Assembly (NCBI GenBank): GCA_964013425.1
Contig: CAXGWC010000002.1
Coordinates: 22,818-86,817 of the forward strand
From: an uncultured Candidatus Poseidoniales archaeon
GTDB lineage: Archaea; Thermoplasmatota; Poseidoniia; Poseidoniales; Thalassarchaeaceae
Direction of reading: 5' to 3'
DNA: 64,000 nt
Position 1 is the stretch's first letter. Each line of letters starts with the position of its first letter. The notes beneath the pieces are model-generated. The model was not told where the DNA came from. It saw only the letters and a program-made list of their open reading frames with translations, and made no database searches. Positions 6,426-35,062 of this stretch are shown here, one piece after another. A program made the position numbers and the translations under genes.

Positions 6426-6457
6426 TCGTCGTGCGGGCACTGGAACGTGAGTTTCTA

Positions 6458-9400: not shown

Positions 9401-9562
9401 GGTAACGGTCTAGAAGGAGCCAGTGGAGGAATCACCTTCATGGCAAACGGAGACGTTCCAGCAGCTGGTTTCTGTATCGGGGAGTTCTCTCACGATGCAA
9501 CCACAGACACAGTCTCATACGACTGTGCCAGGAACTGGGACCCAGTCAACGGAATCGTTTGA
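6458..9562 (+). CDS. livK: three-domain solute-binding lipoprotein: partial/permuted SBP type-3 module + two tandem LivJ/LivK-type branched-chain amino-acid-binding domains
   Basis: Signal peptide with lipobox-like AAFAGC. Residues ~60-230 resemble polar-amino-acid SBP family 3 (AIISAMTKTDEREQVVDFTRAYY). Two paralogous type-I LivK-like domains follow (IKLGFLNDATGPIA...GAACSGASMGANAVLSAAGIP...YPHFYRIVPSD, and again IKIGFLNDATGPIA...YPSFYRVVPSD). Start set at the internal ATG (MKNNKM). Confidence 0.8.
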   Translation: MKNNKMIAMMLTMSMLAAAFAGCLGGDDEDDTPDWSISMASDVSADFVESAWDPIIPNLNAGDMCDAIISAMTKTDEREQVVDFTRAYYTSSQGVIGGSGAASISAVADLNAEGTTIGVQSGTTSDLYAQNNLGAATISAYDDFPSVIAALNNGDVHYAMGDAPVLSLEGTLMVTFSDENFGMAVQGDSSGELLGALNMAIGALVDSGEYDLIYGASFDGAVTLADDTTMDTATSYPVPTEGSDLTAVLESGSLRLCTDPFYPPFESYADDGSVVGFDADIAHAVADEIAAHYMGAANPMFVPPVVEEPAVTIKLGFLNDATGPIAQFAAPFTFAWGAAMDDLNAMGDDYVFEVIEADSGCDGQMAGTAAQSLVDAGVVAVAGAACSGASMGANAVLSAAGIPMISYASTSPALSDATAYPHFYRIVPSDALQGQAAADMIMASGVSNTAVVHMTNAYGAGLADAVALNLGEDNVCLQAGYEETATDFQGAVQAVMDAGCDSVFLGSYSADGATIVETMAVMGATIPIFSADGMAGEAALADYTNPAAANGIEVTRPRAAAAGAGVFAAACADDPVCSTGIFTSEAYDAVMMIGHAAMMEDGENMGTHVPMVGDAYAGDSGTHTFLDNGDVGGSGYDVCTFAHVPTFGEYFNCDRMWEAGGAGVTAAPFMGATIKIGFLNDATGPIAVYANGFVAASQIALGLANTIGYSNNVQFEIVYADSGCDSTMGGAAAQTLVDAGVWGVVGAACSGASMGANAVLSAAGIPQVSYASTSPALSDATAYPSFYRVVPSDAFQGSVVAEVMTADAQDNVAVIHMTNAYGSGLADAFVANMDSASICTQIGYEETATDFSTIVSTVVNDGCTSVMMVSYAADGAMLIEEMSLQGFTGAIYGADGIAEVGLAADMADKSLVDGVIATKPAAAGGMTTVGMVFAAQCMANPDCAGGIYTAEAFDAVYIVAFAAFTALATPGITPDMAIAGTGNGLEGASGGITFMANGDVPAAGFCIGEFSHDATTDTVSYDCARNWDPVNGIV

Positions 9563-9646: not shown

Positions 9647-12600
9647 ATGCTGCATGAGGCTCGGCACAAGTACTCGGATCTCTCTAGGGGAACACGAAGG
9701 ATACTAGTTGCAACAATACTTTTTCTAGATGCCAACTTACTCGGAACCTCAAACGGGATAGGATTACTCAACATTGTCGATACAATTCTTGGCGGGGGGA
9801 TCCCTGACGATATGGTATGGCTCCTCCAGGTTGTAGAGTCTCTAACAGCCGGATTCATAATCATCAAGGTATTTTTTGATGATGTTCCTCAAGGTAATTT
9901 CAGAACCATAGCCTTACTCACATCCCCGTTATTCATGATCCTGGTCACTTTCTTGACTCTCGACATCCTTCTCAGTGGGCTTGGAGAGGGAGCATCCTTC
10001 ACTCTGGATCTAGTTTCAGTAGCTACAGGCACTCTGACTTGGTCCTCGACTTATCTGGCAATTGCCATAGGACTCACTCTAACTTACAAGGTCCAGAGGT
10101 ATGGGAACTTCGCCCAATCTGAATTATTCATGATCGGGATGTATCTCTCAATGATAATGATCTGGAGTGACTACTTCTTCCCTCTTTCCAGTTTAAGCAC
10201 CACTAAAGACGGTGTTCTAACTTGGTCAGTCCTAATCTTCACACTCATCGCCGCATTCGTTCTTACGGGTCTAGCTGGAGTAATCATTGACAGATTGGTC
10301 TACAGGGGATTCCGAAGGACAAAGACCACTCCCCAGGTCATGATGATCGCTTCTCTGGGTGTCGCCCTAATACTGAGGGCCATCACTTACCTAAGATTTG
10401 GCTCTGGAAGAAATATGTTCGAGCCAGAAGGAGACTGGAGGATGCCAAATCTAAGGTGGGAGATACCAACCACCAAGCTCAGACTCAATCTCGGAGATAG
10501 GTCGATAGACGAGGGCAGGACCTATACTCAGTGGACATGCGAGCAGACAGGTGTGGACGAAACAACCGGAGAGCCTATACTGTCTAGAATAGTGACTGAA
10601 GCGTCAAAACCAGCATATGAACTGTATGATACTACTGCAGACTGCGTAACACAGGCTACCACCAACTACGCGTATTACAAGGGGGCAGTACCATTCGTAA
10701 TCTTCTCATCGGTACTCCTGCTGATGCTCCTACTCAACAAGACAAGGCTTGGCAGAAGAATGAGGGCGGTTGCTGATAATCCAGAGCTTGCCGCCAGTAG
10801 CGGAATCAACGTTGAGAGGGTTCACCTTTCGAGTGCTTTCCTGTCCGCTGGAATATCTGGGATGGGTGGTGCGATATTCGCAATGACGCTCAGATTCAGT
10901 CCAGAGACTGCTTTCACCCTACTCCTCCCTTCATTCGCAATCATTGTACTAGGTACAATTGGTTCCATTCCAGGGGCCATTGTGGGCTCCATCATCGTAG
11001 GGTTCGTACGAGCACTCTCATCTCCTGTACTGATTGGCATAGGATCACCACTCGGACGATCTAACTACTCTGCTTTGGACGGTGTCATGCCCTATATTTT
11101 CCTAGTTGCAATCCTAATGATAATGCCCGAGGGGATTGGAGACGCATATGAGAAGTGGAAGATTGACAGACTCCGCAATAAGAAGGAGACCAATACGGAA
11201 AGGGATGTCAAGATTGCCACTGGCTTAGCACTCCTCCCCACTGGAATCTTCGGATTGCATCACTGGTGGAGGGGCAGAACACACAGGATGCAAACATTCT
11301 CTGTGATCGCCATTGCCTCATACGTATTCCACAGATTCAGCAATTTTGTTGAAAGGAACTCCTTCGCCGACGGCTCTTGTGCTGACTCCTGCCAGGAAAG
11401 CGAGTTTGCTGAAACCAATTTGGCAATACTGACCGGAAGGAACGACGGAGAGCTAAAACTGGAGGATAGCCCTCTGACGGAGACCCATCTGTTGGATCAG
11501 ACTAGCGCCCCCAGTGGAATGACTCCTTTCGAAACCGAACAATGGATCCCAGACGCCCTGGCCGATATGCGACAGTCCTGGCTCAATCAAATGAAATTTG
11601 AGATCGATCTTGTCAACTTTATTGCTGACGCAGGAGATTTGATTTGGCCACTAGCATTACTGGTACTCTGGGCATTCTCTGTGTATGAAGGAATCAGGAT
11701 AATGAATGGCAAGGAGAATGAGAAAATATCATTCCCACTATTCTCCAAATGGAAATCCATCTTCGACTCAACTACCTCTCCAATATCAGATACTAGGCAA
11801 AAATTATCAGAGCTGGACAGGAATCATGAAAGAATAGTTAAACAACTGAGGGAGAAATTGAGTAATTATCTCAAAACCGGAGAGTTGAAGTCCCACGCCA
11901 TAGATTTCTCACTCAGATTCACTGAACCAGTAATGAAGGCACTCAAAATTCCAGAGAGTCGTAAGACAGAACTAAAGTTGTACGGAAGACAGAGTCCAAT
12001 AGGGTCTTGGATATCATTCTTCATCCTCATAACGATCTTAGTGATGTTTCTTGTTTGGCTTCCAATAGCCGAATCGGACAATTTTGAATTTAAGAAAGTC
12101 CTCCAGGTATCGAATGTATTACTCACACTCTCTATCTTCATTTTGATGGCCTTTTCTCTAAACTTACATACCGGGTATACTGGAATGGTAAATTTCGGAA
12201 TCATCTTCTTCGTCTCTGTTGGAGCGATAACAGTCTCAATATTAACCGCTCCAGAAAGAGTGTTCGGATATAATTGGGGGATTTTAGAGGCCACAATAGT
12301 AGCTATGATACTATCCGCCGCCATCGGTTGGCTACTCGCCTATCCTACTGCCAGATTGAGGACAGACTACTTTGCCATAGTGACCATATCGCTTGGAGAA
12401 ATCGTAAGAGTTCTCTTAGCAGGAGAACCACTTTTGAGAGCGGGGCCGGTTGCTTCTGCAATTGGGATATCAGGATACCCACTACCATTGGAAGACTGGT
12501 GGTTCTGTGGCTCGGAGAAGTCCGGTCCAGATACACAGTGGGCCAGTCCCGATGCCTGCAGAGATGACATATTGTTAGACAGCACCCCGGCGTACTACAT

Positions 12601-13384
12601 AGGTGAGCTACTGAATCTTGGCGAACCGGCTCCCTATATGATGATGCTAATGCTATTATCAGTGGCTTCAGTCATAGTCGTGTGGGCACTACTATCCAGA
12701 CTACTCTCATCACCATGGGGGAGGGTACTCAAGGCCATCAGAGAAGACGAGGAAGTCGCCCAGCACCATGGCCACGACATCTTGACTCACAAGGCGGCAA
12801 GCCTCGCTCTGGGGGCTGCAATAGCTGCACTTGCTGGAGCACTTTGGGCTTGGAAGCTAACTGGTTTCGACGCGAGTTTCATGTCTCCTGCGCGCTCTAC
12901 ATTTTTAGTATGGGCCGCCTTCATTATTGGAGGTACATCCAATAACAGGGGTATGATTGTCGGGGCCTTCATCATAGTTCTTATGGAATTCGTATTCAAC
13001 GTCCTAGTAGCGGCACAGGGTTCTTCAGATCTGCCACTACATGTTACCGCTAACAGAATAGACACTCTATTCGAGTGGATAATAACAAATCAATGGGATG
13101 TAGCCACTATATTCGCTATTACGGCTCTTGTGGGTTACATTACCAGATCAGAGAGGGTTTTCGATATTGGTTTTTCAGGAGCAACAATATTCCTCTTCGC
13201 CGCACTTGCTCTTGGTGAGAGATCCATCAATGAGTCGTTCTTCGCAGGGGTTGTTAGTGCGGATATGGTTTATGTCAAGCTCATGCTGATTGGGTGCCTA
13301 ATGCTGTTCTCACTCAAATTCAATTCCAAGGGCCTATTGCCAGAAGTCCCGATCAGACCTAGTAGACCAGACGGAGGCGAATAA
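9647..13384 (+). CDS. livHM: fused LivH-LivM branched-chain amino-acid ABC permease (1245 aa) with a ~300-aa internal linker
   Basis: LivH-like LVYRGFRRTKTTPQVMMIASLGVALILRAI in the first half; LivM-like ARLRTDYFAIVTISLGEIVRVLLAGEPLLRAGP in the second half. The linker has a TM2-like GLALLPTGIFGLHHWWRG segment and a CADSC motif. True start uncertain. Confidence 0.8.
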   Translation: MLHEARHKYSDLSRGTRRILVATILFLDANLLGTSNGIGLLNIVDTILGGGIPDDMVWLLQVVESLTAGFIIIKVFFDDVPQGNFRTIALLTSPLFMILVTFLTLDILLSGLGEGASFTLDLVSVATGTLTWSSTYLAIAIGLTLTYKVQRYGNFAQSELFMIGMYLSMIMIWSDYFFPLSSLSTTKDGVLTWSVLIFTLIAAFVLTGLAGVIIDRLVYRGFRRTKTTPQVMMIASLGVALILRAITYLRFGSGRNMFEPEGDWRMPNLRWEIPTTKLRLNLGDRSIDEGRTYTQWTCEQTGVDETTGEPILSRIVTEASKPAYELYDTTADCVTQATTNYAYYKGAVPFVIFSSVLLLMLLLNKTRLGRRMRAVADNPELAASSGINVERVHLSSAFLSAGISGMGGAIFAMTLRFSPETAFTLLLPSFAIIVLGTIGSIPGAIVGSIIVGFVRALSSPVLIGIGSPLGRSNYSALDGVMPYIFLVAILMIMPEGIGDAYEKWKIDRLRNKKETNTERDVKIATGLALLPTGIFGLHHWWRGRTHRMQTFSVIAIASYVFHRFSNFVERNSFADGSCADSCQESEFAETNLAILTGRNDGELKLEDSPLTETHLLDQTSAPSGMTPFETEQWIPDALADMRQSWLNQMKFEIDLVNFIADAGDLIWPLALLVLWAFSVYEGIRIMNGKENEKISFPLFSKWKSIFDSTTSPISDTRQKLSELDRNHERIVKQLREKLSNYLKTGELKSHAIDFSLRFTEPVMKALKIPESRKTELKLYGRQSPIGSWISFFILITILVMFLVWLPIAESDNFEFKKVLQVSNVLLTLSIFILMAFSLNLHTGYTGMVNFGIIFFVSVGAITVSILTAPERVFGYNWGILEATIVAMILSAAIGWLLAYPTARLRTDYFAIVTISLGEIVRVLLAGEPLLRAGPVASAIGISGYPLPLEDWWFCGSEKSGPDTQWASPDACRDDILLDSTPAYYIGELLNLGEPAPYMMMLMLLSVASVIVVWALLSRLLSSPWGRVLKAIREDEEVAQHHGHDILTHKAASLALGAAIAALAGALWAWKLTGFDASFMSPARSTFLVWAAFIIGGTSNNRGMIVGAFIIVLMEFVFNVLVAAQGSSDLPLHVTANRIDTLFEWIITNQWDVATIFAITALVGYITRSERVFDIGFSGATIFLFAALALGERSINESFFAGVVSADMVYVKLMLIGCLMLFSLKFNSKGLLPEVPIRPSRPDGGE

Positions 13385-25123: not shown

Positions 25124-28100
25124 ATGGTTGATTCTAGGAGGGACTCGATGGAGCCGAATGTGGACTCAATTACAATTGAAGAGATACCTGTTGGAGCAAT
25201 TCCCAACTGGCTCTTCGATCATTTCGTCGACCAGGCAATAGATCCTAGGCCCGTTTCCAAAGGGGGCCCTTCGAAAGTCCTAACAATATACTCCAATGAG
25301 AACAGTAGAAGACAACACATGTCTATGCTCAGCAACATAGGTTTCGCTTTCGACAGGACCCTCCACCATACTCTGGAGTCACTCAAGTCCTCCCTAATGG
25401 CGGACCTGAGGATCCCGAGAAAAATCTCTTTAGGACCTTCCTTCGACTTAGTACTGCATAATTTATGCTCAGAAAGAGCATCGGATCTTTCCTTCCCACT
25501 GATCAATCCTCTGCCTAATATGCATTGGGGGGAGGGGAAGACTACTGCTCTCTCAGAGCTACACACTTTCCTCTCAAAAGAGTCCTCAACAGCCTCATGG
25601 GATGGTCCAGGAATGCACTCTTTCAGAGAGATTCTAAGAGACATTGAATCGAAGACGGGAGGAACTCATCCTGATTTTCTGACATCTAAGATACTGGAAG
25701 GTATTGAATTCGTTGAAACTCCTTTCACACTACTGGATATTGATGGTATTATCATGCTAGATCATGCCTCTCCCATCAACAAGTCAGATTCGGAACTACT
25801 CACTGCTCTTTCCAAAATTCGCCCCATTCATCAATTAACATATCCAGGGAGTTACAGGCTTGGATTTCACGGGTTTCAACTGGTGGATGATTTCCCTATA
25901 ACAGATACAGACGATTTGCCAGAATGGATTCCCAGACATGAAATATCCAACCACAAAAATGCCCCAACTGTGAATAGGGTTTTTGTTAATAGAGAGGAAC
26001 AGTCTTTTGAGGCCTCTATTTCGATTGCCAGAGGCTTTCTATCAGAGGAACCCAATTCAACAGTCCTAATCATCGATCCATCATTTGAAGAAAATCAAAC
26101 CAGATGGAGCAAAATGATACATGATTTGGGACTGCCCGTATCTGGACTAAAGAAACCCATAATACATTCACCATTAGGCCACTGGTTACATGAGTTGGCT
26201 AAAATTGGAAACGGCTCTAACTCTTTCTCAATGGATAAGCTAAGATTGTTGGCCTTACAGGAATCGCTCTCCCCTTTTTCTCCTTTCCACAATGAAGATA
26301 ACACCAATGATATTTCACCTCATCCCGATATAGAGCTACTATCTCAAATTGCAAGGTCAGAGCACATTCTAGGAGGACCAGGCGCTTTAGAGAGGTGGAT
26401 GGAGGCTCTATGCAGGCCCTCCAAGAAAGACGAAAAGGGCCCCGCACGTGAATCAACTCAGTGGTGGATGATCGCACTCGTATCGTCAATACTTCCACTT
26501 CTAGATAAGACAGATAGAGAACTTCTATCAAATCAAAGACTTCTCACAGGATGCCACTCCGGAAAACTTCTCGAAGTGCCCAACTCGCCATCTACTGGGG
26601 ATGAGTGGCTCGCTAGAACTTTTCAACAAATAGACACCGCTATCACAATTGACTCTCTGGATGGAAACGCAATACCAATATCGTCCATAATAAAGGCAAT
26701 CACATCTGAGCACGAGTCCTTGAGGTCACTGCAAAGATCAGTCGGACAGCCTCCTCCTGCAGGAGGGTCAGAATGGGTATCAGAGCTATCATCCATACTC
26801 AAGACCGCTTCTCTTCCGGTTCCGGTATCAGGCATCAGCTCAAGACTAAGAGTCATGGCGCCAAAAGACGCTCTTGGTTGCAACTCAGACATAGCTATAC
26901 TGGCAAATACATCAGCACCCTCATGGAATCTCAGATCGCCAAAAATACCCTTCATAGGAGAAATGGAGAGACACAAATTCGAGCTTCTGAGGCCAGACGT
27001 TCCTATTACCAAGGCACGTCATCACCTGTATCACATTCTCAATTGCTGTAGTAAAGTGATTTTGATAGACCCCAGCTTGGATAAGTCCACACCTCTAGCA
27101 CCTCCCTTGGAGGAGATCTTAGCTTACTGTACCTCACCAGTCCACTTCGATCCAAACTCCGAGGAGAATCTCGGCCCTAGGGACATTAAGCAACTTGATG
27201 GAATACTACTCCGAAACATGAAGAATTCAAGCAATCCACCCCTCAATCCCAGTGCGATTACCATTCCCCTCGATGTAGAGCTTCAGAGGGATAGGGAGAG
27301 AAGGCAACCTAGCAAGGCTGACTCAGAAGGATACCTTCCAGCCGAATATAGAAACAGGGTTATTTTGTTCGACTACGACGATTTGACAAGAAAGACTCCA
27401 GAGGGAGTAGAAAATCCTCGTAATTCTACTATTTGGCCAGTCATTGGAGCCACCAGTAGCGACGGGAAGAACTCCGTAACCATTGATCCCAGACCATTTA
27501 CTCCGATACCGTCCGGTTCAGCTGTATCGGATAGCAGACATGGCCATTCAGACGGCGCCAATCAGGAAATACAACTATGGTCTCCAAGCAGGCTTCAAGA
27601 ATGGGCTATGTGCCCTCGAAGAGGATGGCTATCAAGAGGACTCAGAATTAGAGAGGAAGAGACACAGAGCGAAGATCTTGATCCGAGAATCCATGGGGAC
27701 CTCCTTCACCAGGTACATCACGATCTTATTTGTGAGGTCCTAGGCATGCAAGAGCAAGTGGAAAGGGACATATCAGGAGCTCTAGAGGGGCATTTTCCCA
27801 CCAATATAGCCGATTCGGGCTTAGAAGAGCAAGACATCATGCAGAAGGCCCTCGAAATCCTTGACAAACTAGCACCATGGCTGGAACGATCTGATGGTGT
27901 TTCCACCTTTAGACTCAGAATGCTCACCGGTATGTCACACATTGAATGGAAAGACTGGCTGGCCAACCCAGTCAGGGCCCCGCTAGGAGGTAGAATAGGA
28001 GCAATGATAAGATCAGAAATGCAACTTTCAGACTCAATGCCCATTGCGTTGGAATGGGAAATTTCTAATGGTTCAGAGACAGGCTCAGAAATTTCTCTGA

Positions 28101-28729
28101 ATCAAAATGAAACCAGTCCAAATCAGATAGAATTGCCTTCCATAATGATCAATGGAAAGATAGACAGGGTGGATATAATTCCATTCGACAAAGAAGGCAA
28201 TGAATGGATTAATGATGACGGATCAATTGAGATAGCGCCATTAAGACTCTTCGAAAAGAATGACTGGAAACCTCGTAGAAGAGTGATTATCAGAGATTTG
28301 AAGACTTCAGAGAAAAAGCCTTCAGATAGGAACAAGGAAGGCCTTCTTAACGAACTTCAATTGGCAATTTATTCCAGAGCATGGGAGATCAACCACCCAG
28401 GAGACTTGGTCGTGGGGGCTGGTATCTCAACCATTGGGCACTCCACAGAACATCTCGTTGAGCCTTCAGCCAACCATCGATCAGAATTAGAATCACTTTC
28501 AGTAGGAACGACCACCTCTCTGACCACCAGATTGCATAGATTCCCAGACGAATCCACCAATCCCAAGAGTGACCCCTTCAGAGCATGGATGGCCCAGCGA
28601 CTTTCAGTTGCATTAGGGGTTGCTAATGGGGCCGTTGAAGGTAGAGTACACCCAACTCCATCCAAATCAGCATGCAGATACTGCCCAGTGAGTAGTATAT
28701 GCGCAGTCAAAATGGAGGATGACTACTGA
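25124..28729 (+). CDS. addB: AddB/RexB-like nuclease subunit: degenerate N-terminal helicase-like region + C-terminal RecB-family nuclease with Cys cluster
   Basis: C-terminal nuclease motifs in AddB order: SPSRLQEWAMCPRRGWL, HGDLLHQVHH, GKIDRVD, IIRDLKTSEKK, QLAIYS, then CRYCPVSSIC (AddB-type Fe-S staple). N-terminal region has no canonical Walker A (KGGPSKV) or helicase motifs. Stop overlaps the start of the downstream helicase gene. Confidence 0.65.
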   Translation: MVDSRRDSMEPNVDSITIEEIPVGAIPNWLFDHFVDQAIDPRPVSKGGPSKVLTIYSNENSRRQHMSMLSNIGFAFDRTLHHTLESLKSSLMADLRIPRKISLGPSFDLVLHNLCSERASDLSFPLINPLPNMHWGEGKTTALSELHTFLSKESSTASWDGPGMHSFREILRDIESKTGGTHPDFLTSKILEGIEFVETPFTLLDIDGIIMLDHASPINKSDSELLTALSKIRPIHQLTYPGSYRLGFHGFQLVDDFPITDTDDLPEWIPRHEISNHKNAPTVNRVFVNREEQSFEASISIARGFLSEEPNSTVLIIDPSFEENQTRWSKMIHDLGLPVSGLKKPIIHSPLGHWLHELAKIGNGSNSFSMDKLRLLALQESLSPFSPFHNEDNTNDISPHPDIELLSQIARSEHILGGPGALERWMEALCRPSKKDEKGPARESTQWWMIALVSSILPLLDKTDRELLSNQRLLTGCHSGKLLEVPNSPSTGDEWLARTFQQIDTAITIDSLDGNAIPISSIIKAITSEHESLRSLQRSVGQPPPAGGSEWVSELSSILKTASLPVPVSGISSRLRVMAPKDALGCNSDIAILANTSAPSWNLRSPKIPFIGEMERHKFELLRPDVPITKARHHLYHILNCCSKVILIDPSLDKSTPLAPPLEEILAYCTSPVHFDPNSEENLGPRDIKQLDGILLRNMKNSSNPPLNPSAITIPLDVELQRDRERRQPSKADSEGYLPAEYRNRVILFDYDDLTRKTPEGVENPRNSTIWPVIGATSSDGKNSVTIDPRPFTPIPSGSAVSDSRHGHSDGANQEIQLWSPSRLQEWAMCPRRGWLSRGLRIREEETQSEDLDPRIHGDLLHQVHHDLICEVLGMQEQVERDISGALEGHFPTNIADSGLEEQDIMQKALEILDKLAPWLERSDGVSTFRLRMLTGMSHIEWKDWLANPVRAPLGGRIGAMIRSEMQLSDSMPIALEWEISNGSETGSEISLNQNETSPNQIELPSIMINGKIDRVDIIPFDKEGNEWINDDGSIEIAPLRLFEKNDWKPRRRVIIRDLKTSEKKPSDRNKEGLLNELQLAIYSRAWEINHPGDLVVGAGISTIGHSTEHLVEPSANHRSELESLSVGTTTSLTTRLHRFPDESTNPKSDPFRAWMAQRLSVALGVANGAVEGRVHPTPSKSACRYCPVSSICAVKMEDDY

Positions 28730-31700
28730 TGATTCCCAATACCGCTCAACGCCTCGCGCTAAACTTGGATTCACATATTGTAATCGATGCTGGAGCCGGG
28801 ACAGGAAAGACCAAGACCATCATCGATAGAGTGATTGAGCACTATCTCTGTGGAGATCAAAGGGCCACTAGGATACTCCCAGTCCCAGAAAGACCCCCTC
28901 CACCAAGAGGAGGGATCCTAATTTCCCCCTCTTCGGAGACGGTAGCTCCCAAGGATCACCCCGGGCTTCTCCCTGGAGAGGTAGTTCTGCTAACGTTCAC
29001 CAACAAGGCGGCAGATGAGATGAGGCATAGGTTGAGGGATGAGATATTGAAACTGAGAATGGGCTCCTCTTCGGTCTCCGAACAGAATAGAGCCGATCCA
29101 AGAGTAACCCATCCCGGCCTTCCTGAGCAGCTTCTAACCCTTCTGGAGGACGCCCCAATAGGTACCATAGACTCCTTCTTCAATCAATTAGTCTCTCCTT
29201 ACAGAGGATTCCTAGGAGATGCTCTCAGCAGGGAGAATATTTCTGATGCAAGCAGGATACTACTTATCGAAGACGCACTCGATACACTTTGGCGGCTTCC
29301 AAGCTCAATCTCTGGTCTAGGAGATGCAGTCGATGCAGGTATTCCAGCAGAGATAGCGTCAGATGTCCTCAAAGCCAGAGAGAGAATAGCTAGGAGATAC
29401 TCTGGTAGGAAGACCGCAGCTAGGCTACTCCGCGGTCTTGTTAGGAAATCCGTCTTCATCGAGGAAGGACTCAGGAGAATCACTGATAAGAACGGCCATG
29501 TAGACCCCCTACTACTCAGGGAAAGAATCCTATCTACAACTGATAGGAAACTAGTCGAGTCAATGTGTTCGAGGATAAATGAAAGTAGTGAGAGATATTG
29601 TGAAATCATCCTTGGATCTCCTGAAATGGTAGCTGGGGGCATTCCCCAAGAATCGAGAATGGCCTGTCTGTTAGCACTAAATAAACAGAATCCGTCTGAT
29701 ACATGGGGACAATTAGTATGGCTTGCGCATCATCTAGATTGCACCACAAGTGCGCCAACAGTTCAATCTGGTTCTCCAACCATATTTCCCAGACAAAATA
29801 TTCCTGATGACAGCCATTGGCCGAGAGGGGTAAAGTCTTGGAGCGCAATAAAGGACAAGCACACCAAGGAATCTACCAAAGAAGCACTAAACTTGGAAAT
29901 AGATAGAATCAGGAACGCATGGACCGACTCTACTGGTTCCCTGACTCTCCATTTTGCTCAGATTGCAATGCTTCTAGACTCGGCATCCCCTCCCTGCTCA
30001 CCTCCCTCTCGTGGAAAATCCCTGTCCCCCTTGCCAGACACCATCCCAGATAGGCTTCCTCAAGGAGAAAAATCAGAGAGATACTATTTCACCATAGAAG
30101 CAGAAGCTGGGAATCTGGATGATCTCAGGCTAGCACATCTGGGATTCAAAGGTATTCTGAAAAGAATGAAGGAAAGAGAAGAGGTCCACGACTTCGATGA
30201 TATACAGGCCTTAGCAGGCGACCTACTACTTTCCAAGTGCCCAGAAGTGTGTCGTAAATACTACCCCCAAGAGGTAATTAGAGAACTGGATTCCATAGGC
30301 GATGAACCTTGGAGAGACGATCATATCCTGGCTGCGTTAAAGCAGATATCCACATTAGAAAATAACCCAAAGTTAGCAGGAGAATCAATATCCGAATTAA
30401 CAGCTATCAGATCAGATCTGGAAAGGAGACACGATCTTCTCAGGACCATTCGAAGGAGATTCAGGGCATTCATCATTGACGAGGCACAGGATAACTCACC
30501 TCTCCAATGGAGGCTTCTTTCCAGACTCTGGGGAGAGAGGAGCGTCCTGGAGGGGGAGATTCCAACCCCAGATACGCCATGGCAACCCACTGTGTGCTAC
30601 GTTGGCGATGTCAAGCAGAGCATCTATGCTTTCAGACAGGCCGAGGTGGTCGGATTCCTTGAATATGCTAGAACACTGATGGCAATAAATCGTCACGAAT
30701 TCTCCAGTATCCAGTTATTACGACAAAAACCAACACTAAGAAAGATCGACAGTAGCAGGGACCCAAGAAATGCACATCTAGTGGGAATCAAACAGGCAAA
30801 GACACTGACTCGCTTATCTGGAATTGATACGACACCATGGGTTCCTTTCGATCTTCCAGATAGAGGACGTATCCCAGAGCCCGAGGAAATCGATAGAAGG
30901 AGGAACGGATTAATCCGACTAAATGTTAACTATCGTACCAAGGGAGGGCTTTTAGAAGCAATGAATCACTGGTGGGATGATGTGTTTTCAGACAGGCACA
31001 AAGACTTCCCAAGAGGAGATTTCTACGCTACATCACAACCCTTGCGCCCGTCTGAGGAAAACTCAGACTCGGCTGGTTCGATTGAATGGATATGCCCCGT
31101 ACTAAATGGCGGGGATGATGATGCTCCAGAAGATCTCACCGCTCCAATAGACTCGTTCGGTTTCGGAAAGCCGAACTCGATCGAAAGGCAGGCGATGCTA
31201 ATCGCACTGAGGGCCAAAAATTTGATCAAAGGAGAGCCAATAAGGGTTCTCTCATCATCAGGAAAGTGGAGCGAGCTACCGGCAGAAGAGCCAATCGCTC
31301 CGAGTGACATAATGATTCTCCTTCCGAGCAGGAGTAAGCTGAGAGATAGCATAATGAGAGAGCTCTCAGTTGTTGGTGTCCCTGCTCAGGCCGACAGGGA
31401 AGGAAGCCTCCTACAACGTCCGACCGCACACGCCCTCGATGGCCTACTACAGCTATTGGCAAGGCCCGACTCTCCCCATCACGCTGCATGGGTGGCAAGG
31501 TCTTCACTAATTGGCCTCGATGACAGACAACTTCAGAAATTCATTGGGGACTCATCTCGAGGGGAAGATATGCTAGCTAGATTACGAGATTTTACAGCAA
31601 ATGACAGGCATAAAGAAATGATAAAAAGATGGGAGATTCTCTCTAGGTCTAGCAGATTAGTCGAAGCTCTTAACGAGACATTGGATAGATCGGACCTATT

Positions 31701-33591
31701 GATGGCCTACCCAGATAATACCTCAAGACAGGATGCCGAGCAGTTTATCCAACTAGTGAGCACGTTGGCTATGGATCTCGGCGGTGACTGCAAAGTAATA
31801 GCGGACAGTGTCCGTAGGCTAAGAGAGGGGGATAAGAACAGTACAGAGGCAGTGAATGTGCCTGACTCAGACGCTGTCAGAGTTATGACAATCCATGGAT
31901 CAAAGGGCTTAGAATCTAAGGTAGTAATCCTGGCAGATGTATTCTCCGGAAGGCAGACCAATATCAGAATAGAATCCTCAGAGAGACTCATTGTCACTCC
32001 TGATTTATTCGGGGGGCATCCCAAGCCATGGCCTTCCAAAGATCCAGTTTCTCCTCTCTGGAAACACGTGAAGAAAATCCACTTGGCCAGAAGGAATGCT
32101 GAAGCAAGAAGGTTGCTTTACGTAGCGGCCACAAGAGCTGAAGACAAGTTGATAATTTGTGGTTCTCCCAAGCACACTAAATGGGAGGATGGAAAGGGAA
32201 TCACCTTTTCTTGGTCTTATGGAAAATCAGCTCCCCAACTCGGAGAGATGTGGCTAGAATCTCTTAGACAGGGTTCATGGAAGAGAGGAGAGGAATCATC
32301 TTATTGGCTTTCTTCAGAGGACTCACAATCTCAATCTCCTCCAAAAGTCACTAACGAAGGTATCAGGGAGATAGATCCACTATTAGCATCAACCTCTGGA
32401 ATGCTAGGGTCAAATAATCTCCATGGGATAACCATATTGCATCATCCGATGTGCTTTGAAACGACAGATAAGACAACTAGAACAGTCCTGACGCCCCTCC
32501 AAAAGATCGAGAGAACCAATCAAGCGTCTTCTGAATCAGCCGCCCTCCTTCCCGCACCAAATACTACATCCAGAAATGATAGGGGGAGCAGAGTAAGGAT
32601 CGCTCCTCACGATCTGACGGTATACAATGAATGTCCGAGGAGATATTGGCTCGAGACAAGGGGAGGTAGCCCGACAAAGAAATCGGAGTATCATTCGGGG
32701 CAACTAGAAAACAAAACATTGCCATCTGGCATAGATGCAGCCACTCTTGGTAAGGTGATTCACAGGATTTTCGAGATAGGGCTGATGAATCCTGGTCCTC
32801 CTAGTGATACCATCCCAAATCTACCCAGCTCATGGATAAGCAAGAGCCCGGACAGACTTACTGATGACTCACTTATGAAACAGGTGTTCCATGAAATACT
32901 GCCGCTGGAAGCAGATAGGGAAGGGTGCTCAAAAATTGTCAGGACAATACTTGAAAGAATTAGAAAAGGACCTCTGGGGGAACTATGCTCTGGCACCTCA
33001 GTTGATGGCCATTTAGTAGACGGCTTACGAACTGAGATGCCATTCCATATTGCTAGGACTGTAGACCCGGGAGGGATTACGAGAGGGAGATGGTCTCCTG
33101 ACGGAATAGAGCCTCTCTCATACATCGAACACGCCTCCTTAGAGATGGATGGAGTGATAGATCTGGTACTTTGTACTACGTCTGAGGAAGGGAGTTTCAT
33201 CAGGCCCATAGACTTGAAGACCGAGGAGGCAGTGAGTATCTCCGATTATGATTCCAATGGCCTAATCTCGTCTTTGGGTAACGATTCAATCAAGCCAGCA
33301 TCTCAAGCGGAGATGGATATTCTCGAACACCACGCAATGCAGTTGACGCTGTATTACTTGTCTTTGAAGTCTATCGAGGATGAGAGGAAGAAAAGAGGGC
33401 TACCTTACAGAGAGGTCCTAAGACCAGCAATATTAGTTGGCATAACTGGTAGAATCGTTGAGTACCCGGAAGACATGTTCCTAACGGCACTGCAAAAGTT
33501 AGACATGGCTATGAATACCGTAACGGAAATGGCACTCTTGTCAGAAGCCCCAATCGCTCGGTATCCTTGCACTTGCTCAACCTGCACTTAG
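28729..33591 (+). CDS. addA: AddA/RecB-like UvrD-family SF1 helicase fused to a C-terminal RecB nuclease domain (1620 aa)
   Basis: Helicase motifs: I GAGTGKT; Ia TFTNKAADEM; II IIDEAQDNSP; III GDVKQSIYAFRQA; IV NYRTKGG; V TIHGSKGLE; VI YVAATRAEDKL. Nuclease motifs: LTVYNECPRRYWLE, GKVIHRIFE, IDLVLCT...IDLKTEE, QLTLYY. Terminal ...RYPCTCSTCT. Confidence 0.75.
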   Translation: MIPNTAQRLALNLDSHIVIDAGAGTGKTKTIIDRVIEHYLCGDQRATRILPVPERPPPPRGGILISPSSETVAPKDHPGLLPGEVVLLTFTNKAADEMRHRLRDEILKLRMGSSSVSEQNRADPRVTHPGLPEQLLTLLEDAPIGTIDSFFNQLVSPYRGFLGDALSRENISDASRILLIEDALDTLWRLPSSISGLGDAVDAGIPAEIASDVLKARERIARRYSGRKTAARLLRGLVRKSVFIEEGLRRITDKNGHVDPLLLRERILSTTDRKLVESMCSRINESSERYCEIILGSPEMVAGGIPQESRMACLLALNKQNPSDTWGQLVWLAHHLDCTTSAPTVQSGSPTIFPRQNIPDDSHWPRGVKSWSAIKDKHTKESTKEALNLEIDRIRNAWTDSTGSLTLHFAQIAMLLDSASPPCSPPSRGKSLSPLPDTIPDRLPQGEKSERYYFTIEAEAGNLDDLRLAHLGFKGILKRMKEREEVHDFDDIQALAGDLLLSKCPEVCRKYYPQEVIRELDSIGDEPWRDDHILAALKQISTLENNPKLAGESISELTAIRSDLERRHDLLRTIRRRFRAFIIDEAQDNSPLQWRLLSRLWGERSVLEGEIPTPDTPWQPTVCYVGDVKQSIYAFRQAEVVGFLEYARTLMAINRHEFSSIQLLRQKPTLRKIDSSRDPRNAHLVGIKQAKTLTRLSGIDTTPWVPFDLPDRGRIPEPEEIDRRRNGLIRLNVNYRTKGGLLEAMNHWWDDVFSDRHKDFPRGDFYATSQPLRPSEENSDSAGSIEWICPVLNGGDDDAPEDLTAPIDSFGFGKPNSIERQAMLIALRAKNLIKGEPIRVLSSSGKWSELPAEEPIAPSDIMILLPSRSKLRDSIMRELSVVGVPAQADREGSLLQRPTAHALDGLLQLLARPDSPHHAAWVARSSLIGLDDRQLQKFIGDSSRGEDMLARLRDFTANDRHKEMIKRWEILSRSSRLVEALNETLDRSDLLMAYPDNTSRQDAEQFIQLVSTLAMDLGGDCKVIADSVRRLREGDKNSTEAVNVPDSDAVRVMTIHGSKGLESKVVILADVFSGRQTNIRIESSERLIVTPDLFGGHPKPWPSKDPVSPLWKHVKKIHLARRNAEARRLLYVAATRAEDKLIICGSPKHTKWEDGKGITFSWSYGKSAPQLGEMWLESLRQGSWKRGEESSYWLSSEDSQSQSPPKVTNEGIREIDPLLASTSGMLGSNNLHGITILHHPMCFETTDKTTRTVLTPLQKIERTNQASSESAALLPAPNTTSRNDRGSRVRIAPHDLTVYNECPRRYWLETRGGSPTKKSEYHSGQLENKTLPSGIDAATLGKVIHRIFEIGLMNPGPPSDTIPNLPSSWISKSPDRLTDDSLMKQVFHEILPLEADREGCSKIVRTILERIRKGPLGELCSGTSVDGHLVDGLRTEMPFHIARTVDPGGITRGRWSPDGIEPLSYIEHASLEMDGVIDLVLCTTSEEGSFIRPIDLKTEEAVSISDYDSNGLISSLGNDSIKPASQAEMDILEHHAMQLTLYYLSLKSIEDERKKRGLPYREVLRPAILVGITGRIVEYPEDMFLTALQKLDMAMNTVTEMALLSEAPIARYPCTCSTCT

Positions 33592-33625: not shown

Positions 33626-35062
33626 TTGCTAAATTGTATACCAATACACATGGAACACGACTTGGACCGGCTTCTGACTATGAGTGATGATATATGGGAG
33701 AACTCAATTATCCCTAGTCTCAGTGAATTCATATCCATCAAGGCCCTCTCTCCACTGTTCGAACCAGAATGGCGCAGGCTAGGGGAGCTTGACGCCACAA
33801 TTGATCTATTCTGTAAGTGGGTCGAAACCCAGAATCTGAATGGAATGACCTACTCAGTTCACAGGATCGAAGACAGGTCTCCAGTTCTGCTTATCACTGT
33901 CGAGGGGACAGGACCGGGTGAGATTGTCTTCTACTCTCATCTGGACAAGCAACCCTCCAAGCCAGAACTGTGGTCCGAGGGACTCGGCCCTTTGAAAGCT
34001 GTCAGGAGAGGTCCGTGGCTCTTTGGAAGGGGAAGTATCGACGATGGATATGGAGGTTATCTATGCGTAGCTTCTCTGAAAATTCTTCAGAACTCCAATA
34101 TTCCTCATCCAAAATGCTCCTTCTTAATCGAAACATGTGAAGAATCGGGATCCTATGATCTACCTCCTTATCTCGAGGCTCTGAAGGAAGATTTAGGAGA
34201 ACCCGATATGATTGTAGTGATGGATAGTGGCGGTCCCGACTACGATCATATCTGGATTACAGAGGCACTAAGGGGTCTTATCTCGGGTACTCTTTCAATC
34301 AAGGTTTCACATGAGGGAATCCATTCGGGCACTTCTGGAGGCTCTATTCCATCTTCATTTAGAATAGCTAGGGCGCTATTAGATAGGGTTGAAGACTCAA
34401 AAACAGGTCAGATTCTAATCCCTGAAATGCACGTTGACATATCCGATGATCTCAGAAGCAAGGCAGAATCACTCGCCAATGTAGTGGGGGATTCGCTCTG
34501 GCAACAGCTGCCCACGGTAGACACGCTCCTCCCGGTTTCGGATAATACTGCAGACATGATTCTGGGAATGAATTGGCAACCCTCACTATGCGTCATAGGA
34601 GCTGATGGCCTACCGTCAGTTCAGACGGCTGGAAATGTACTAAGAACTAATACCGATCTAAAATTGAGCTTTAGGATACCTCCCGGAGTCGATGCAGGCC
34701 CTCTTGAGCCAATTCTGAAGCAAATTCTAGAGGAAAATCCACCATATGGAGCAGAGGTTTCATTCTCACCCGACTCGTCCGCAAATGGCTTTCATTCACC
34801 TCCGCTAGATGGAGAGGTAAAGAGGGCCATTACTGAGGCTTCTACGCTCTTAACCGGTAGACCGCCTTTAGCAACTTGGATTGGTGGAACAATTCCATTC
34901 ATGGCTATGATGCAGAGCAGATACCCAAATGCTAAGTTTCTATGCACAGGAGCCTCTGGACCTGGAAACAATGCGCACGGTCCCGATGAGAAGCTCCACA
35001 TTCCCACGGCAAAGAGATTGACAGCAGTACTAGCAACGACTGTAGCCGCAATATCTAGATGA
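33626..35062 (+). CDS. M20 family metallopeptidase (dipeptidase-like)
   Basis: YSHLDKQP metal-binding motif, GRGSIDDGYGG, dimerisation domain; 478 aa. Confidence 0.8.
   Translation: MLNCIPIHMEHDLDRLLTMSDDIWENSIIPSLSEFISIKALSPLFEPEWRRLGELDATIDLFCKWVETQNLNGMTYSVHRIEDRSPVLLITVEGTGPGEIVFYSHLDKQPSKPELWSEGLGPLKAVRRGPWLFGRGSIDDGYGGYLCVASLKILQNSNIPHPKCSFLIETCEESGSYDLPPYLEALKEDLGEPDMIVVMDSGGPDYDHIWITEALRGLISGTLSIKVSHEGIHSGTSGGSIPSSFRIARALLDRVEDSKTGQILIPEMHVDISDDLRSKAESLANVVGDSLWQQLPTVDTLLPVSDNTADMILGMNWQPSLCVIGADGLPSVQTAGNVLRTNTDLKLSFRIPPGVDAGPLEPILKQILEENPPYGAEVSFSPDSSANGFHSPPLDGEVKRAITEASTLLTGRPPLATWIGGTIPFMAMMQSRYPNAKFLCTGASGPGNNAHGPDEKLHIPTAKRLTAVLATTVAAISR

What the first reader, a model, noticed from the sequence alone, without database searches (positions are those of the whole stretch)
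32590..33591. Both subunits, not only the AddB-like one, carry a Cys-stapled nuclease domain
The AddA-like protein has a Cys immediately before nuclease motif I (LTVYNECPRRYWLE). It ends with a C-x-C-x2-C cluster (RYPCTCSTCT). This mirrors the 1+3 cysteine arrangement of the AddB Fe-S staple, which the AddB-like partner also has (MCPRRGW ... CRYCPVSSIC). Bacterial AddA nuclease domains are not known for this. The complex may therefore have two Fe-S-stapled nucleases, closer to a Cas4/AdnAB-like design.
Basis: partly seen in the sequence, partly recalled or inferred. Interest (0 to 1): 0.6.

Follow-up and report, generated by a model that had tools for sequence, protein, structure and literature searches.

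The report
Doubly cysteine-stapled archaeal AddAB helicase-nuclease
A marine archaeon (Poseidoniales) encodes a two-subunit DNA-end-processing machine of the bacterial AddAB type in which the motor subunit, as well as the usual partner subunit, carries a conserved four-cysteine metal "staple" around its nuclease, a variant not described for studied enzymes.

Summary
ORF 28729-33591 (1620 aa) is a UvrD-type motor with a C-terminal RecB-family nuclease. It contains NEC(1302)PRRYW and ends in C1614-x-C1616-x2-C1619. The overlapping upstream ORF (25124-28729) folds like B. subtilis AddB and has the canonical 1 + C-x2-C-x5-C.

The window is from a Poseidoniales (Marine Group II) archaeon, and the operon is conserved in all 80 related genomes inspected. 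In 77 of 77 complete AddA-like C-termini, the N-side Cys and the CxxC are invariant. The fourth Cys sits in exactly one of three places: downstream (49), upstream as in the window (22), or beside the first Cys as CPRC (6). Trees of both genes imply three independent relocations. Two distant lineages lost all four cysteines together. This argues strongly for a four-ligand metal site. Fe-S is inferred by homology only; zinc is possible, and 3-D convergence could not be measured.

AdnAB has a single Fe-S cluster, in AdnA. Uncharacterised Deinococcus and Synechococcus plasmid pairs also have both subunits stapled, whereas S. aureus, Ralstonia, Thermus and haloarchaeal AddA-like proteins do not.

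Verdict: a new variant of a known kind, of moderate interest.

The parts
25124..28729 (+). AddB-like subunit gene (1201 aa). The true start is probably Met9 at 25148, which gives the 1193 aa seen in homologues.
   Evidence: ORF and translation. Pfam PDDEXK_1 at the C-terminus. No Walker A or DExx motif. The AF2 model (pLDDT 83) best matches B. subtilis AddB over its full length (4ceh_B, E 6e-20), then AdnA.
27575..28726 (+). AddB-like RecB-family nuclease domain with the canonical staple: Cys830 (27611-27613) plus Cys1184, Cys1187 and Cys1193 (28673-28702; C-x2-C-x5-C).
   Evidence: All four Cys are invariant in 64-71 orthologues. Codons were verified. Motifs GKIDR, RDLKT and LQLAIY are present.
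28729..33591 (+). AddA-like motor-nuclease subunit gene (1620 aa). Its ATG overlaps the AddB-like TGA by one base (TGATG).
   Evidence: Pfam UvrD-helicase, UvrD_C and PDDEXK_1. Best NCBIfam matches are addA_alphas, recB and addA_Gpos, all far below their cut-offs.
28789..28812 (+). Walker A motif AGAGTGKT of the AddA-like motor. Also present: DExx at aa 581, motif III at 625, motif V at 1054 and motif VI at 1131.
32599..33588 (+). AddA-like RecB-family nuclease domain (aa 1291-1620).
   Evidence: Pfam PDDEXK_1. The AF2 model has pLDDT 83.9. Foldseek hits are AdnA, AddA, AddB, Dna2 and RecB nuclease domains.
32632..32634 (+). Staple Cys1302 (NECPRRYW), on the N-terminal flank of the nuclease core.
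   Evidence: Cys in 77 of 77 orthologues. In the model it is the single non-helical residue between two helices, as described for AddB C801 (PMC3321194). It aligns with the AddB-like Cys830.
33160..33354 (+). Catalytic motifs of the AddA-like nuclease: Asp1478 (33160), Asp1495-x-Lys1497 (33211-33219) and Gln1538-x3-Tyr1542 (33340-33354).
   Evidence: Each is invariant in 68 of 68 orthologues. Codons were verified.
33568..33585 (+). C-terminal staple cysteines Cys1614-x-Cys1616-x2-Cys1619, one residue before the stop codon.
   Evidence: Cys1616 and Cys1619 are invariant. Cys1614 is present only in the 22 sequences that lack a downstream or N-side fourth Cys.

Best explanation
The two overlapping genes encode an AddAB-type helicase-nuclease heterodimer of a Poseidoniales (Marine Group II) archaeon. 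AddA-like is the single active SF1A motor and carries a C-terminal RecB-family nuclease. AddB-like is an ATPase-dead helicase-like scaffold with a second RecB-family nuclease. By analogy with AddAB, the complex binds a DNA end and unwinds it, and each nuclease cuts one strand (inferred, not shown).

The unusual feature is that both nuclease domains are clamped by a four-cysteine metal site. One ligand comes from a helix-turn-helix before the nuclease core and three come from the C-terminal tail. This is the 'iron staple' of AddB, AdnA, Cas4 and Dna2. In the AddA-like subunit the site is under strong selection for four ligands but tolerates moving one of them. The ancestral form is C...C-x2-C-x9-C. 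The window's clade moved the last ligand upstream and truncated the tail (C...C-x-C-x2-C). Another clade moved it next to the first ligand (CPRC...C-x2-C).

The most likely cofactor is an Fe-S cluster that stabilises the nuclease fold. This rests on homology to the partner subunit and to AddB and Cas4; it is inferred, not shown.
For: - Identity of the subunits: domain content and motor motifs are shown. The AddB-like model matches AddB chains over about 1200 aligned columns (E 6e-20). The start and stop codons overlap, and the operon is conserved in the Poseidoniales genomes inspected.
- Nuclease fold and intact catalytic residues in the AddA-like subunit.
- Conservation of the cysteines: in 77 of 77 sequences the N-side Cys and the CxxC are invariant.
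- Position of the fourth Cys: every sequence has exactly one, either downstream (49), upstream (22) or N-side (6).
- Independent relocations: neighbour-joining trees of AddA-like (tail excluded) and of the separate AddB-like gene give the same topology. Both give three state changes from a 'downstream' ancestor.
- Concerted loss: distant homologues P0064 and P0081 lack both the N-side Cys and the whole C-terminal cluster. Six others keep 1+3.
- Equivalence to the partner's staple: profile-profile alignment of the two subunits' nuclease domains puts the first Cys, motif II Asp, DxK, QxxxY and CxxC in the same columns (probability 85.5%, E 5.7e-6).
- Topology: in both AF2 models the first Cys lies at the turn between two helices, as in the AddB crystal structure (PMC3321194).
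- Precedent: independent bacterial pairs with 1+3 Cys in both subunits exist on Deinococcus and Synechococcus plasmids.
Against: - No coordinates were returned for the models, so Cys-Cys distances could not be measured.
- The C-terminal tail has only moderate to low pLDDT, 59-72. The canonical AddB-like tail is modelled even worse, below 50, so this is uninformative rather than negative.
- The metal cannot be read from sequence. The same staple holds Zn in DUF3799 (PDB 3L0A) and [2Fe-2S] in one Cas4 (PMC3466216, PMC4176176).
- C-x-C-x2-C at the extreme C-terminus, and the 2+2 CxxC...CxxC variant, are spacings typical of zinc sites.
- Some lineages lost the staple but kept the nuclease motifs, so it is not indispensable.
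- Six other Cys in the protein are also invariant within the order, so invariance alone is weak evidence.
- No sequence-level match to any solved structure was found for either nuclease domain.
- Heterodimer formation and end resection are inferred from homology only.
Confidence: 0.72

Rival explanations
1. The four cysteines of the AddA-like nuclease bind a structural zinc ion (Zn-Cys4), not an Fe-S cluster. The complex would then have one Fe-S staple (AddB-like) and one zinc staple.
For: One clade has two CxxC pairs (CPRC...CKTC) and the window clade has C-x-C-x2-C; from general knowledge these spacings are typical of zinc sites. The ligand geometry is clearly flexible, with three relocations. 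A RecB-like nuclease with the same 1+3 staple holds Zn in PDB 3L0A (PMC3466216). By my own reasoning, saving iron would be plausible for surface-ocean archaea.
Against: The ancestral and majority form (C...C-x2-C-x9-C, with Pro and aromatic residues around it) resembles the Fe-S ligand pattern of AddB and Cas4. It aligns with the partner's canonical C-x2-C-x5-C. All biochemically characterised helicase-linked staples (AddB, AdnA, Dna2, Cas4) bind Fe-S (PMC3378879, PMC13000450, PMC3466216).
Confidence: 0.2
2. The AddA-like protein is a member of the stand-alone UvrD-Cas4-like fusion family, which has been proposed to act in defence. It merely sits next to another PD-(D/E)XK nuclease gene, and no AddAB-like heterodimer forms.
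For: UvrD helicases fused to four-Cys PF12705 nucleases are known in bacteria and mesophilic archaea (PMC5704561). The protein scores far below the AddA and RecB equivalog cut-offs. Related pairs on haloarchaeal and Thermus plasmids lie beside BREX, McrBC or CRISPR genes.
Against: The upstream protein models as full-length AddB rather than a small nuclease. The genes overlap by one base and travel together in all complete loci. The same order and synteny, including the downstream M20 peptidase, hold in a 71% GC relative. The neighbours are housekeeping genes such as MCM, GatE and PolB. The described fusion family is stand-alone or linked to type III restriction-modification genes (PMC5704561).
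Confidence: 0.05
3. The cysteines are conserved for reasons unrelated to metal binding, such as buried packing or disulfides, and the resemblance to a staple is coincidental.
For: Several other Cys (C504, C508, C623, C789, C1242, C1482) are equally invariant within the order.
Against: A packing role does not explain several observations. Exactly one 'fourth' Cys is present in each of 77 sequences at mutually exclusive sites. That Cys relocated three times. The N-side and C-terminal Cys were lost together. The positions match the partner's staple column for column.
Confidence: 0.03

Closest known systems
Bacillus subtilis / S. aureus AddAB helicase-nuclease
   Same: It has two co-encoded subunits in the order addB-addA. 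AddA is the single UvrD-like motor with a C-terminal RecB-family nuclease. AddB is a helicase-like scaffold with a RecB-family nuclease stapled by 1 + C-x2-C-x5-C. The AddB-like model matches AddB chains best.
   Different: Characterised AddA has no staple: S. aureus AddA has no Cys in its last 340 aa, and the Fe-S cluster is assigned to AddB only (PMC3378879, PMC3321194). Here AddA-like has four conserved Cys and is about 400 aa longer. AddB-like lacks the Walker A motif that S. aureus AddB has. The host is an archaeon, and sequence similarity is far below the equivalog cut-offs.
Mycobacterial AdnAB
   Same: It is a heterodimer of two UvrD-like/RecB-nuclease subunits. AdnA's nuclease is the top Foldseek hit for the AddA-like nuclease model. 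AdnA carries an Fe-S subdomain.
   Different: AdnAB has one Fe-S cluster, in AdnA, the non-motor subunit (PMC13000450). AdnA also binds nucleotide, whereas the B-like subunit here has no Walker A or DExx motif. It is therefore not a precedent for two staples.
Cas4 / 'iron staple' nucleases (Cas4, Dna2, Exo5)
   Same: The RecB-family core is flanked by one N-terminal and three C-terminal Cys. The first ligand has a CPRxxW/Y-type motif. The AddB-like N-motif weakly hits the Cas4 model.
   Different: Those characterised so far are described as 5'-to-3' or 5'-strand nucleases (PMC3466216). Here the stapled domain sits on the 3'-5' motor subunit, the position that handles the 3' strand in AddAB (inference). 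The window's tail spacing, C-x-C-x2-C, is non-canonical.
UvrD-Cas4-like fusion proteins (Hudaiberdiev et al. 2017, PMC5704561)
   Same: An active UvrD-type helicase is fused to a PF12705 nuclease with four Cys. The family is present in mesophilic archaea.
   Different: Those proteins are stand-alone or linked to type III restriction-modification or Dcm-Vsr genes. This one is translationally coupled to a full-length AddB-like partner in a housekeeping neighbourhood. Whether the two are phylogenetically related was not tested.
Uncharacterised plasmid-borne AddAB-like pairs of Deinococcus and Synechococcus sp. NIES-970
   Same: The gene order is B-like then A-like, and both subunits have 1 + C-x2-C-x5-C. 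This is the only other double-staple arrangement found.
   Different: The proteins are much shorter (about 850-890 aa and 1080 aa), bacterial and plasmid-borne. Only short, low-probability profile matches link them to the Poseidoniales AddA-like nuclease. Their staple has the canonical spacing with no ligand relocation. They are annotated only as hypothetical, UvrD-helicase or addA.

Membership tests
AddAB-type helicase-nuclease (AddA subunit) | SF1A UvrD-like motor with intact ATPase and helicase motifs | tested here: met
   Pfam UvrD-helicase, AAA_19 and UvrD_C. Walker A at aa 21, DExx at 581, and motifs III, V and VI.
AddAB-type helicase-nuclease (AddA subunit) | C-terminal RecB-family PD-(D/E)XK nuclease with D...D-x-K and QxxxY | tested here: met
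   PDDEXK_1. D1478, D1495, K1497, Q1538 and Y1542 are invariant in 68 of 68. Foldseek hits are AdnA, AddA, AddB, Dna2 and RecB nucleases.
AddAB-type helicase-nuclease (AddA subunit) | Scores as an AddA equivalog (NCBIfam addA_alphas or addA_Gpos cut-offs) | tested here: not met
   147.8 bits against a cut-off of 860.75, and 129 against 707.65. Only the helicase part matches. It is a distant relative, not an equivalog.
AddAB-type helicase-nuclease (AddB subunit) | Co-encoded partner with a helicase-like N-terminal region and a C-terminal nuclease with a 1+3 Cys staple | tested here: met
   Overlapping genes. The AF2 model matches AddB chains (E 6e-20), then AdnA, UvrD and RecC. Cys830, 1184, 1187 and 1193 are invariant.
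AddAB-type helicase-nuclease | Heterodimer that resects DNA ends with two nucleases, regulated by Chi | not testable with these tools
   Needs biochemistry. No Chi-like sequence was sought.
Iron-staple nuclease domain (AddB/AdnA/Cas4/Dna2 class), applied to the AddA-like subunit | One Cys N-terminal and three Cys C-terminal of the RecB core | tested here: met
   The window has C1302 plus C1614, C1616 and C1619. The spacing C-x-C-x2-C is non-canonical. The majority of orthologues have C-x2-C-x9-C, and six have a 2+2 pattern.
Iron-staple nuclease domain (AddB/AdnA/Cas4/Dna2 class), applied to the AddA-like subunit | The four Cys are conserved across homologues | tested here: met
   All 77 sequences carry exactly four staple Cys. 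There were three relocations and concerted loss in two distant lineages.
Iron-staple nuclease domain (AddB/AdnA/Cas4/Dna2 class), applied to the AddA-like subunit | The four Cys converge around one metal site in 3-D | not testable with these tools
Iron-staple nuclease domain (AddB/AdnA/Cas4/Dna2 class), applied to the AddA-like subunit | Binds a [4Fe-4S] or [2Fe-2S] cluster | not testable with these tools
   Sequence cannot separate Fe-S from Zn (PMC3466216, PMC4176176, PMC5704561).
AdnAB | Both subunits have a UvrD-like domain with nucleotide-binding motifs | tested here: not met
   The B-like subunit has no Walker A and no DExx motif.
UvrD-Cas4-like fusion family (PMC5704561) | Stand-alone gene, or gene linked to type III restriction-modification or Dcm-Vsr genes | tested here: not met
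   The gene is coupled to the AddB-like gene. Its neighbours are MCM, GatE, threonine aldolase, an M20 peptidase and an MFS transporter.
UvrD-Cas4-like fusion family (PMC5704561) | Helicase and nuclease parts fall inside that family's monophyletic clade | not tested

The most novel reading that the evidence does not exclude
Both subunits bind an Fe-S cluster, so the Poseidoniales enzyme carries two clusters per heterodimer. Its motor-subunit nuclease would then be the first iron-staple nuclease positioned to act on the 3' strand. The repeated relocation of one ligand (C-x2-C-x9-C to C-x-C-x2-C twice, and to CPRC...CxxC once) would mark changes of cluster type or metal in iron-poor surface waters. 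The double staple, also present in some bacterial plasmid pairs, would be the ancestral state of AddAB-type enzymes, later lost in AddA and RecB of model bacteria.
Probability: 0.25. Interest if true: 0.7.

Novelty: new variant of a known kind. Interest (0 to 1): 0.48.

Why it matters
The iron staple has been treated as the hallmark of the non-motor, 5'-strand nuclease (AddB, AdnA) and of Cas4 and Dna2. Its role, structural or sensing, is still debated.

A family in which the motor subunit's nuclease is also stapled offers several things:
- a natural series of ligand-swap variants;
- lineages that lost the staple while keeping the nuclease motifs;
- a direct way to ask what the staple does, and whether cluster type or metal can change without loss of function.

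The finding also documents that one of the most abundant archaeal groups of the surface ocean universally carries a bacterial-style AddAB end-processing machine. The searchable literature did not mention this. Those genes are currently annotated only as 'UvrD-helicase domain-containing' or 'hypothetical' proteins.

Tried and rejected
- Sequence searches of both nuclease domains against PDB chains, by profile and by single sequence, found nothing meaningful. Alignment of the Cys to AddB C801, C1121, C1124 and C1130 could therefore only be made indirectly, through the partner subunit.
- Foldseek against PDB does not separate stapled from unstapled RecB nucleases. AdnA, AddA, AddB, Dna2 and RecB all score similarly.
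- I considered Cys1482 (IDLVLC) and Cys1242 as alternative ligands and rejected them. They do not co-vary with the staple. Cys1482 is Ala in relatives that keep 1+3, and the Cys1242 equivalent is kept in a relative that lost the staple.
- I tested whether the AddA-like nuclease is a recent copy of the partner's nuclease. The AddA profile aligns over 300 columns with the window AddB-like domain (E 6.6e-8), but the reciprocal comparison and more distant partners score weakly. This is inconclusive.
- I tested for a special relationship to the bacterial double-stapled pairs and found only short, low-probability matches. Also inconclusive.
- Literature searches for AddA with Fe-S, or for AddAB or RecB in Marine Group II, found nothing relevant. 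Yeeles et al. 2009 (PMC2658068) is not held.
Full report
**Observation.**
- ORF 28729-33591 (+, 1620 aa) contains LTVYNECPRRYWLE (Cys1302, codon 32632-32634). It ends RYPCTCSTCT* (Cys1614, 1616 and 1619).
- The ORF immediately upstream (25124-28729, 1201 aa) contains MCPRRGW (Cys830) and CRYCPVSSIC (Cys1184, 1187 and 1193).
- The two genes overlap by one base, TGATG.

**What the two proteins are.**
- The 1620-aa protein has Pfam UvrD-helicase, AAA_19, UvrD_C and, at aa 1291-1554, PDDEXK_1. It has Walker A, DExx and helicase motifs III, V and VI.
- Its best NCBIfam matches are addA_alphas, recB and addA_Gpos. All are far below their cut-offs and cover only the helicase part.
- An AF2 model of the last 371 aa (pLDDT 83.9) matches the nuclease domains of AdnA, AddA, AddB, Dna2 and RecB. 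Asp1478, Asp1495-x-Lys1497 and Gln1538-x3-Tyr1542 are invariant in 68 orthologues, so the nuclease is predicted to be active.
- The 1201-aa protein has only a C-terminal PDDEXK_1 hit and no ATPase motifs.
- Its AF2 model (1193 aa from Met9, pLDDT 83.0) matches B. subtilis AddB chains over about 1200 columns (E 6e-20 to 2e-17). AdnA, UvrD and RecC follow.
- The pair is therefore an AddAB-type helicase-nuclease with very divergent sequence.

**Host and distribution.**
- The window also encodes MCM, archaeal GatE and a family-B DNA polymerase. The other neighbours are housekeeping genes.
- A scan of species-representative genomes with the nuclease-domain alignment found 167 loci. All 80 retained are Poseidoniales / Marine Group II / Thermoplasmatota MAGs or single-cell genomes, and the best is 94% identical.
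- Wherever the contig allows, the AddB-like gene precedes the AddA-like gene.
- A profile search of 1.84 billion representative proteins found only 130 clusters. The full-length ones are 1500-1716 aa, so this nuclease domain is a closed, lineage-specific family.
- A 71% GC relative on a 3-Mb contig keeps the same order: AddB-like, AddA-like, then an M20 peptidase.

**Are the cysteines a unit?** I aligned 77 complete AddA-like C-termini.
- The N-side Cys is present in 77 of 77, and the C-terminal CxxC in 77 of 77.
- The fourth Cys occupies exactly one of three mutually exclusive positions:

| Position of fourth Cys | Pattern | Sequences |
|---|---|---|
| Downstream | C-x2-C-x9-C, usually ...PICGP | 49 |
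| Two residues upstream, with a truncated tail (the window's form) | C-x-C-x2-C | 22 |
| Three residues after the first ligand | CPRC...C-x2-C | 6 |

- No sequence has three or five staple Cys.
- A neighbour-joining tree of AddA-like with the tail columns removed, and an independent tree of the AddB-like partner, give the same arrangement. Fitch parsimony on both gives a 'downstream' ancestor and three changes. The upstream form arises twice and the N-side form once.
- Among distant full-length relatives, six keep 1+3 and one is degenerate. Two (P0064, P0081) have lost the N-side Cys and the whole C-terminal cluster together. In the P0064 locus the AddB-like partner still has its own 1+3.
- Relocation with conservation of number, together with concerted loss, is what a four-ligand metal site predicts. 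Conserved packing residues would not behave this way.
- Invariance alone would not be convincing, because six other Cys in the protein are also invariant within the order. Two of them (C1242, C1482) do not co-vary with the staple in distant relatives.

**Equivalence to the AddB-type staple.**
- Profile-profile alignment of the AddA-like and AddB-like nuclease domains (probability 85.5%, E 5.7e-6, 290 columns) places five features in the same columns: the first Cys (C.RR.W against CPR.GW), the motif II Asp, DLKT, Q...Y and the CxxC.
- In both AF2 models the first Cys is the single non-helical residue between two helices. That is how AddB C801 is described in the crystal structure (PMC3321194).
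- The tail has pLDDT 59-72. The canonical AddB-like tail is modelled even worse, below 50, so low confidence there says nothing either way.

**Comparison with what is known.**
- In the literature held here, the Fe-S cluster of AddAB is assigned to AddB only (PMC3378879, PMC3321194). That of AdnAB is assigned to AdnA only (PMC13000450).
- Helicase-fused four-Cys PF12705 nucleases are known as UvrD-Cas4-like fusions. They are described as stand-alone or restriction-modification-linked (PMC5704561).
- I sampled annotated plasmid and chromid records:

| Pair | A-like staple | B-like staple |
|---|---|---|
| S. aureus AddAB, Ralstonia AddAB, Thermus plasmid pair, haloarchaeal (Natrinema) plasmid pair | no | yes |
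| Rhizobium, Bradyrhizobium, Sphingomonas, Salinibacter plasmid pairs | no | no |
| Two Deinococcus plasmids, Synechococcus sp. NIES-970 plasmid | yes (1 + C-x2-C-x5-C) | yes (1 + C-x2-C-x5-C) |

- The double staple is therefore not unique to Poseidoniales. It appears to be undescribed, and those bacterial genes are annotated only as hypothetical, UvrD-helicase or addA.
- Profile comparisons did not show a specific relationship between the bacterial and archaeal double-stapled nucleases.

**Mechanism.**
- Shown: the domain architecture, intact motor and nuclease motifs, the AddB-like fold of the partner, and a conserved four-Cys set in both nuclease domains.
- Inferred: the two proteins form an AddAB-like heterodimer, each nuclease processes one unwound strand, and the four Cys of each nuclease bind one metal centre that clamps the N-terminal helices to the C-terminal tail.
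- The cofactor is most probably Fe-S, by homology. Zinc is a serious alternative. The same geometry holds Zn in PDB 3L0A and [2Fe-2S] in one Cas4 (PMC3466216, PMC4176176). The C-x-C-x2-C and CxxC...CxxC spacings are zinc-like.

**Verdict.** This is a new variant of a known kind of system, of moderate interest. The ligand-relocation series and the staple-less relatives make the function of the staple experimentally approachable.

Noticed in passing
window 30238-30252 (C504-x3-C508), and Cys623, Cys789, Cys1242 and Cys1482 of the AddA-like protein: Six further cysteines outside the staple are invariant in 68 of 68 Poseidoniales orthologues, including a KCPEVCRKYYP motif in the helicase region. 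They are only partly kept in distant relatives. They could form a second metal site or be buried residues.
   Followed up: partly
L082:4500-4660: In the lineage whose AddA-like protein lost all staple cysteines (P0064), the AddB-like gene carries an in-frame TAA directly before its CPRRAW motif, and gene callers split it into 858 aa and 323 aa. This could be a sequencing error, a pseudogene or read-through.
   Followed up: no
window 25124-25148: The AddB-like ORF probably starts at Met9 (25148) rather than at 25124. Nearly all homologues are about 1193 aa and align from that residue.
   Followed up: partly
window 28729-33591, aa ~105-560: The AddA-like protein is about 400 aa longer than bacterial AddA. 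A stretch of about 450 aa between the Walker A region and the DExx region has no Pfam coverage. It is presumably an expanded accessory domain.
   Followed up: no
window 6431-9562 and 9647-13384: These are unusually long fused transporter genes. One is a 1043-aa protein with two amino-acid ABC substrate-binding modules. The other is a 1245-aa protein combining LivH/UrtB-like and LivM/UrtC-like permeases.
   Followed up: no
window 33626-35062; L081:12703-14109: An M20-family peptidase gene directly follows the AddA-like gene, both in the window and in a 71% GC distant relative. The three-gene order is therefore old.
   Followed up: no
L083 (Natrinema plasmid), L086 (Thermus plasmid), L087 (Deinococcus plasmid): Plasmid-borne AddB-like/AddA-like pairs sit next to defence-type genes: BrxA and McrBC in Natrinema, type I-U Cas3 and toxin-antitoxin genes in Thermus, and WYL and DUF499 genes in Deinococcus. 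The Poseidoniales operon, by contrast, is chromosomal and in a housekeeping context.
   Followed up: no
L084:2246-8037, L087:2395-8243, L085:2420-8328: Short bacterial AddAB-like pairs (B-like about 850-890 aa, A-like about 1080 aa) on Deinococcus and Synechococcus sp. NIES-970 plasmids have 1 + C-x2-C-x5-C in both subunits. I found no description of this in the searchable literature.
   Followed up: partly
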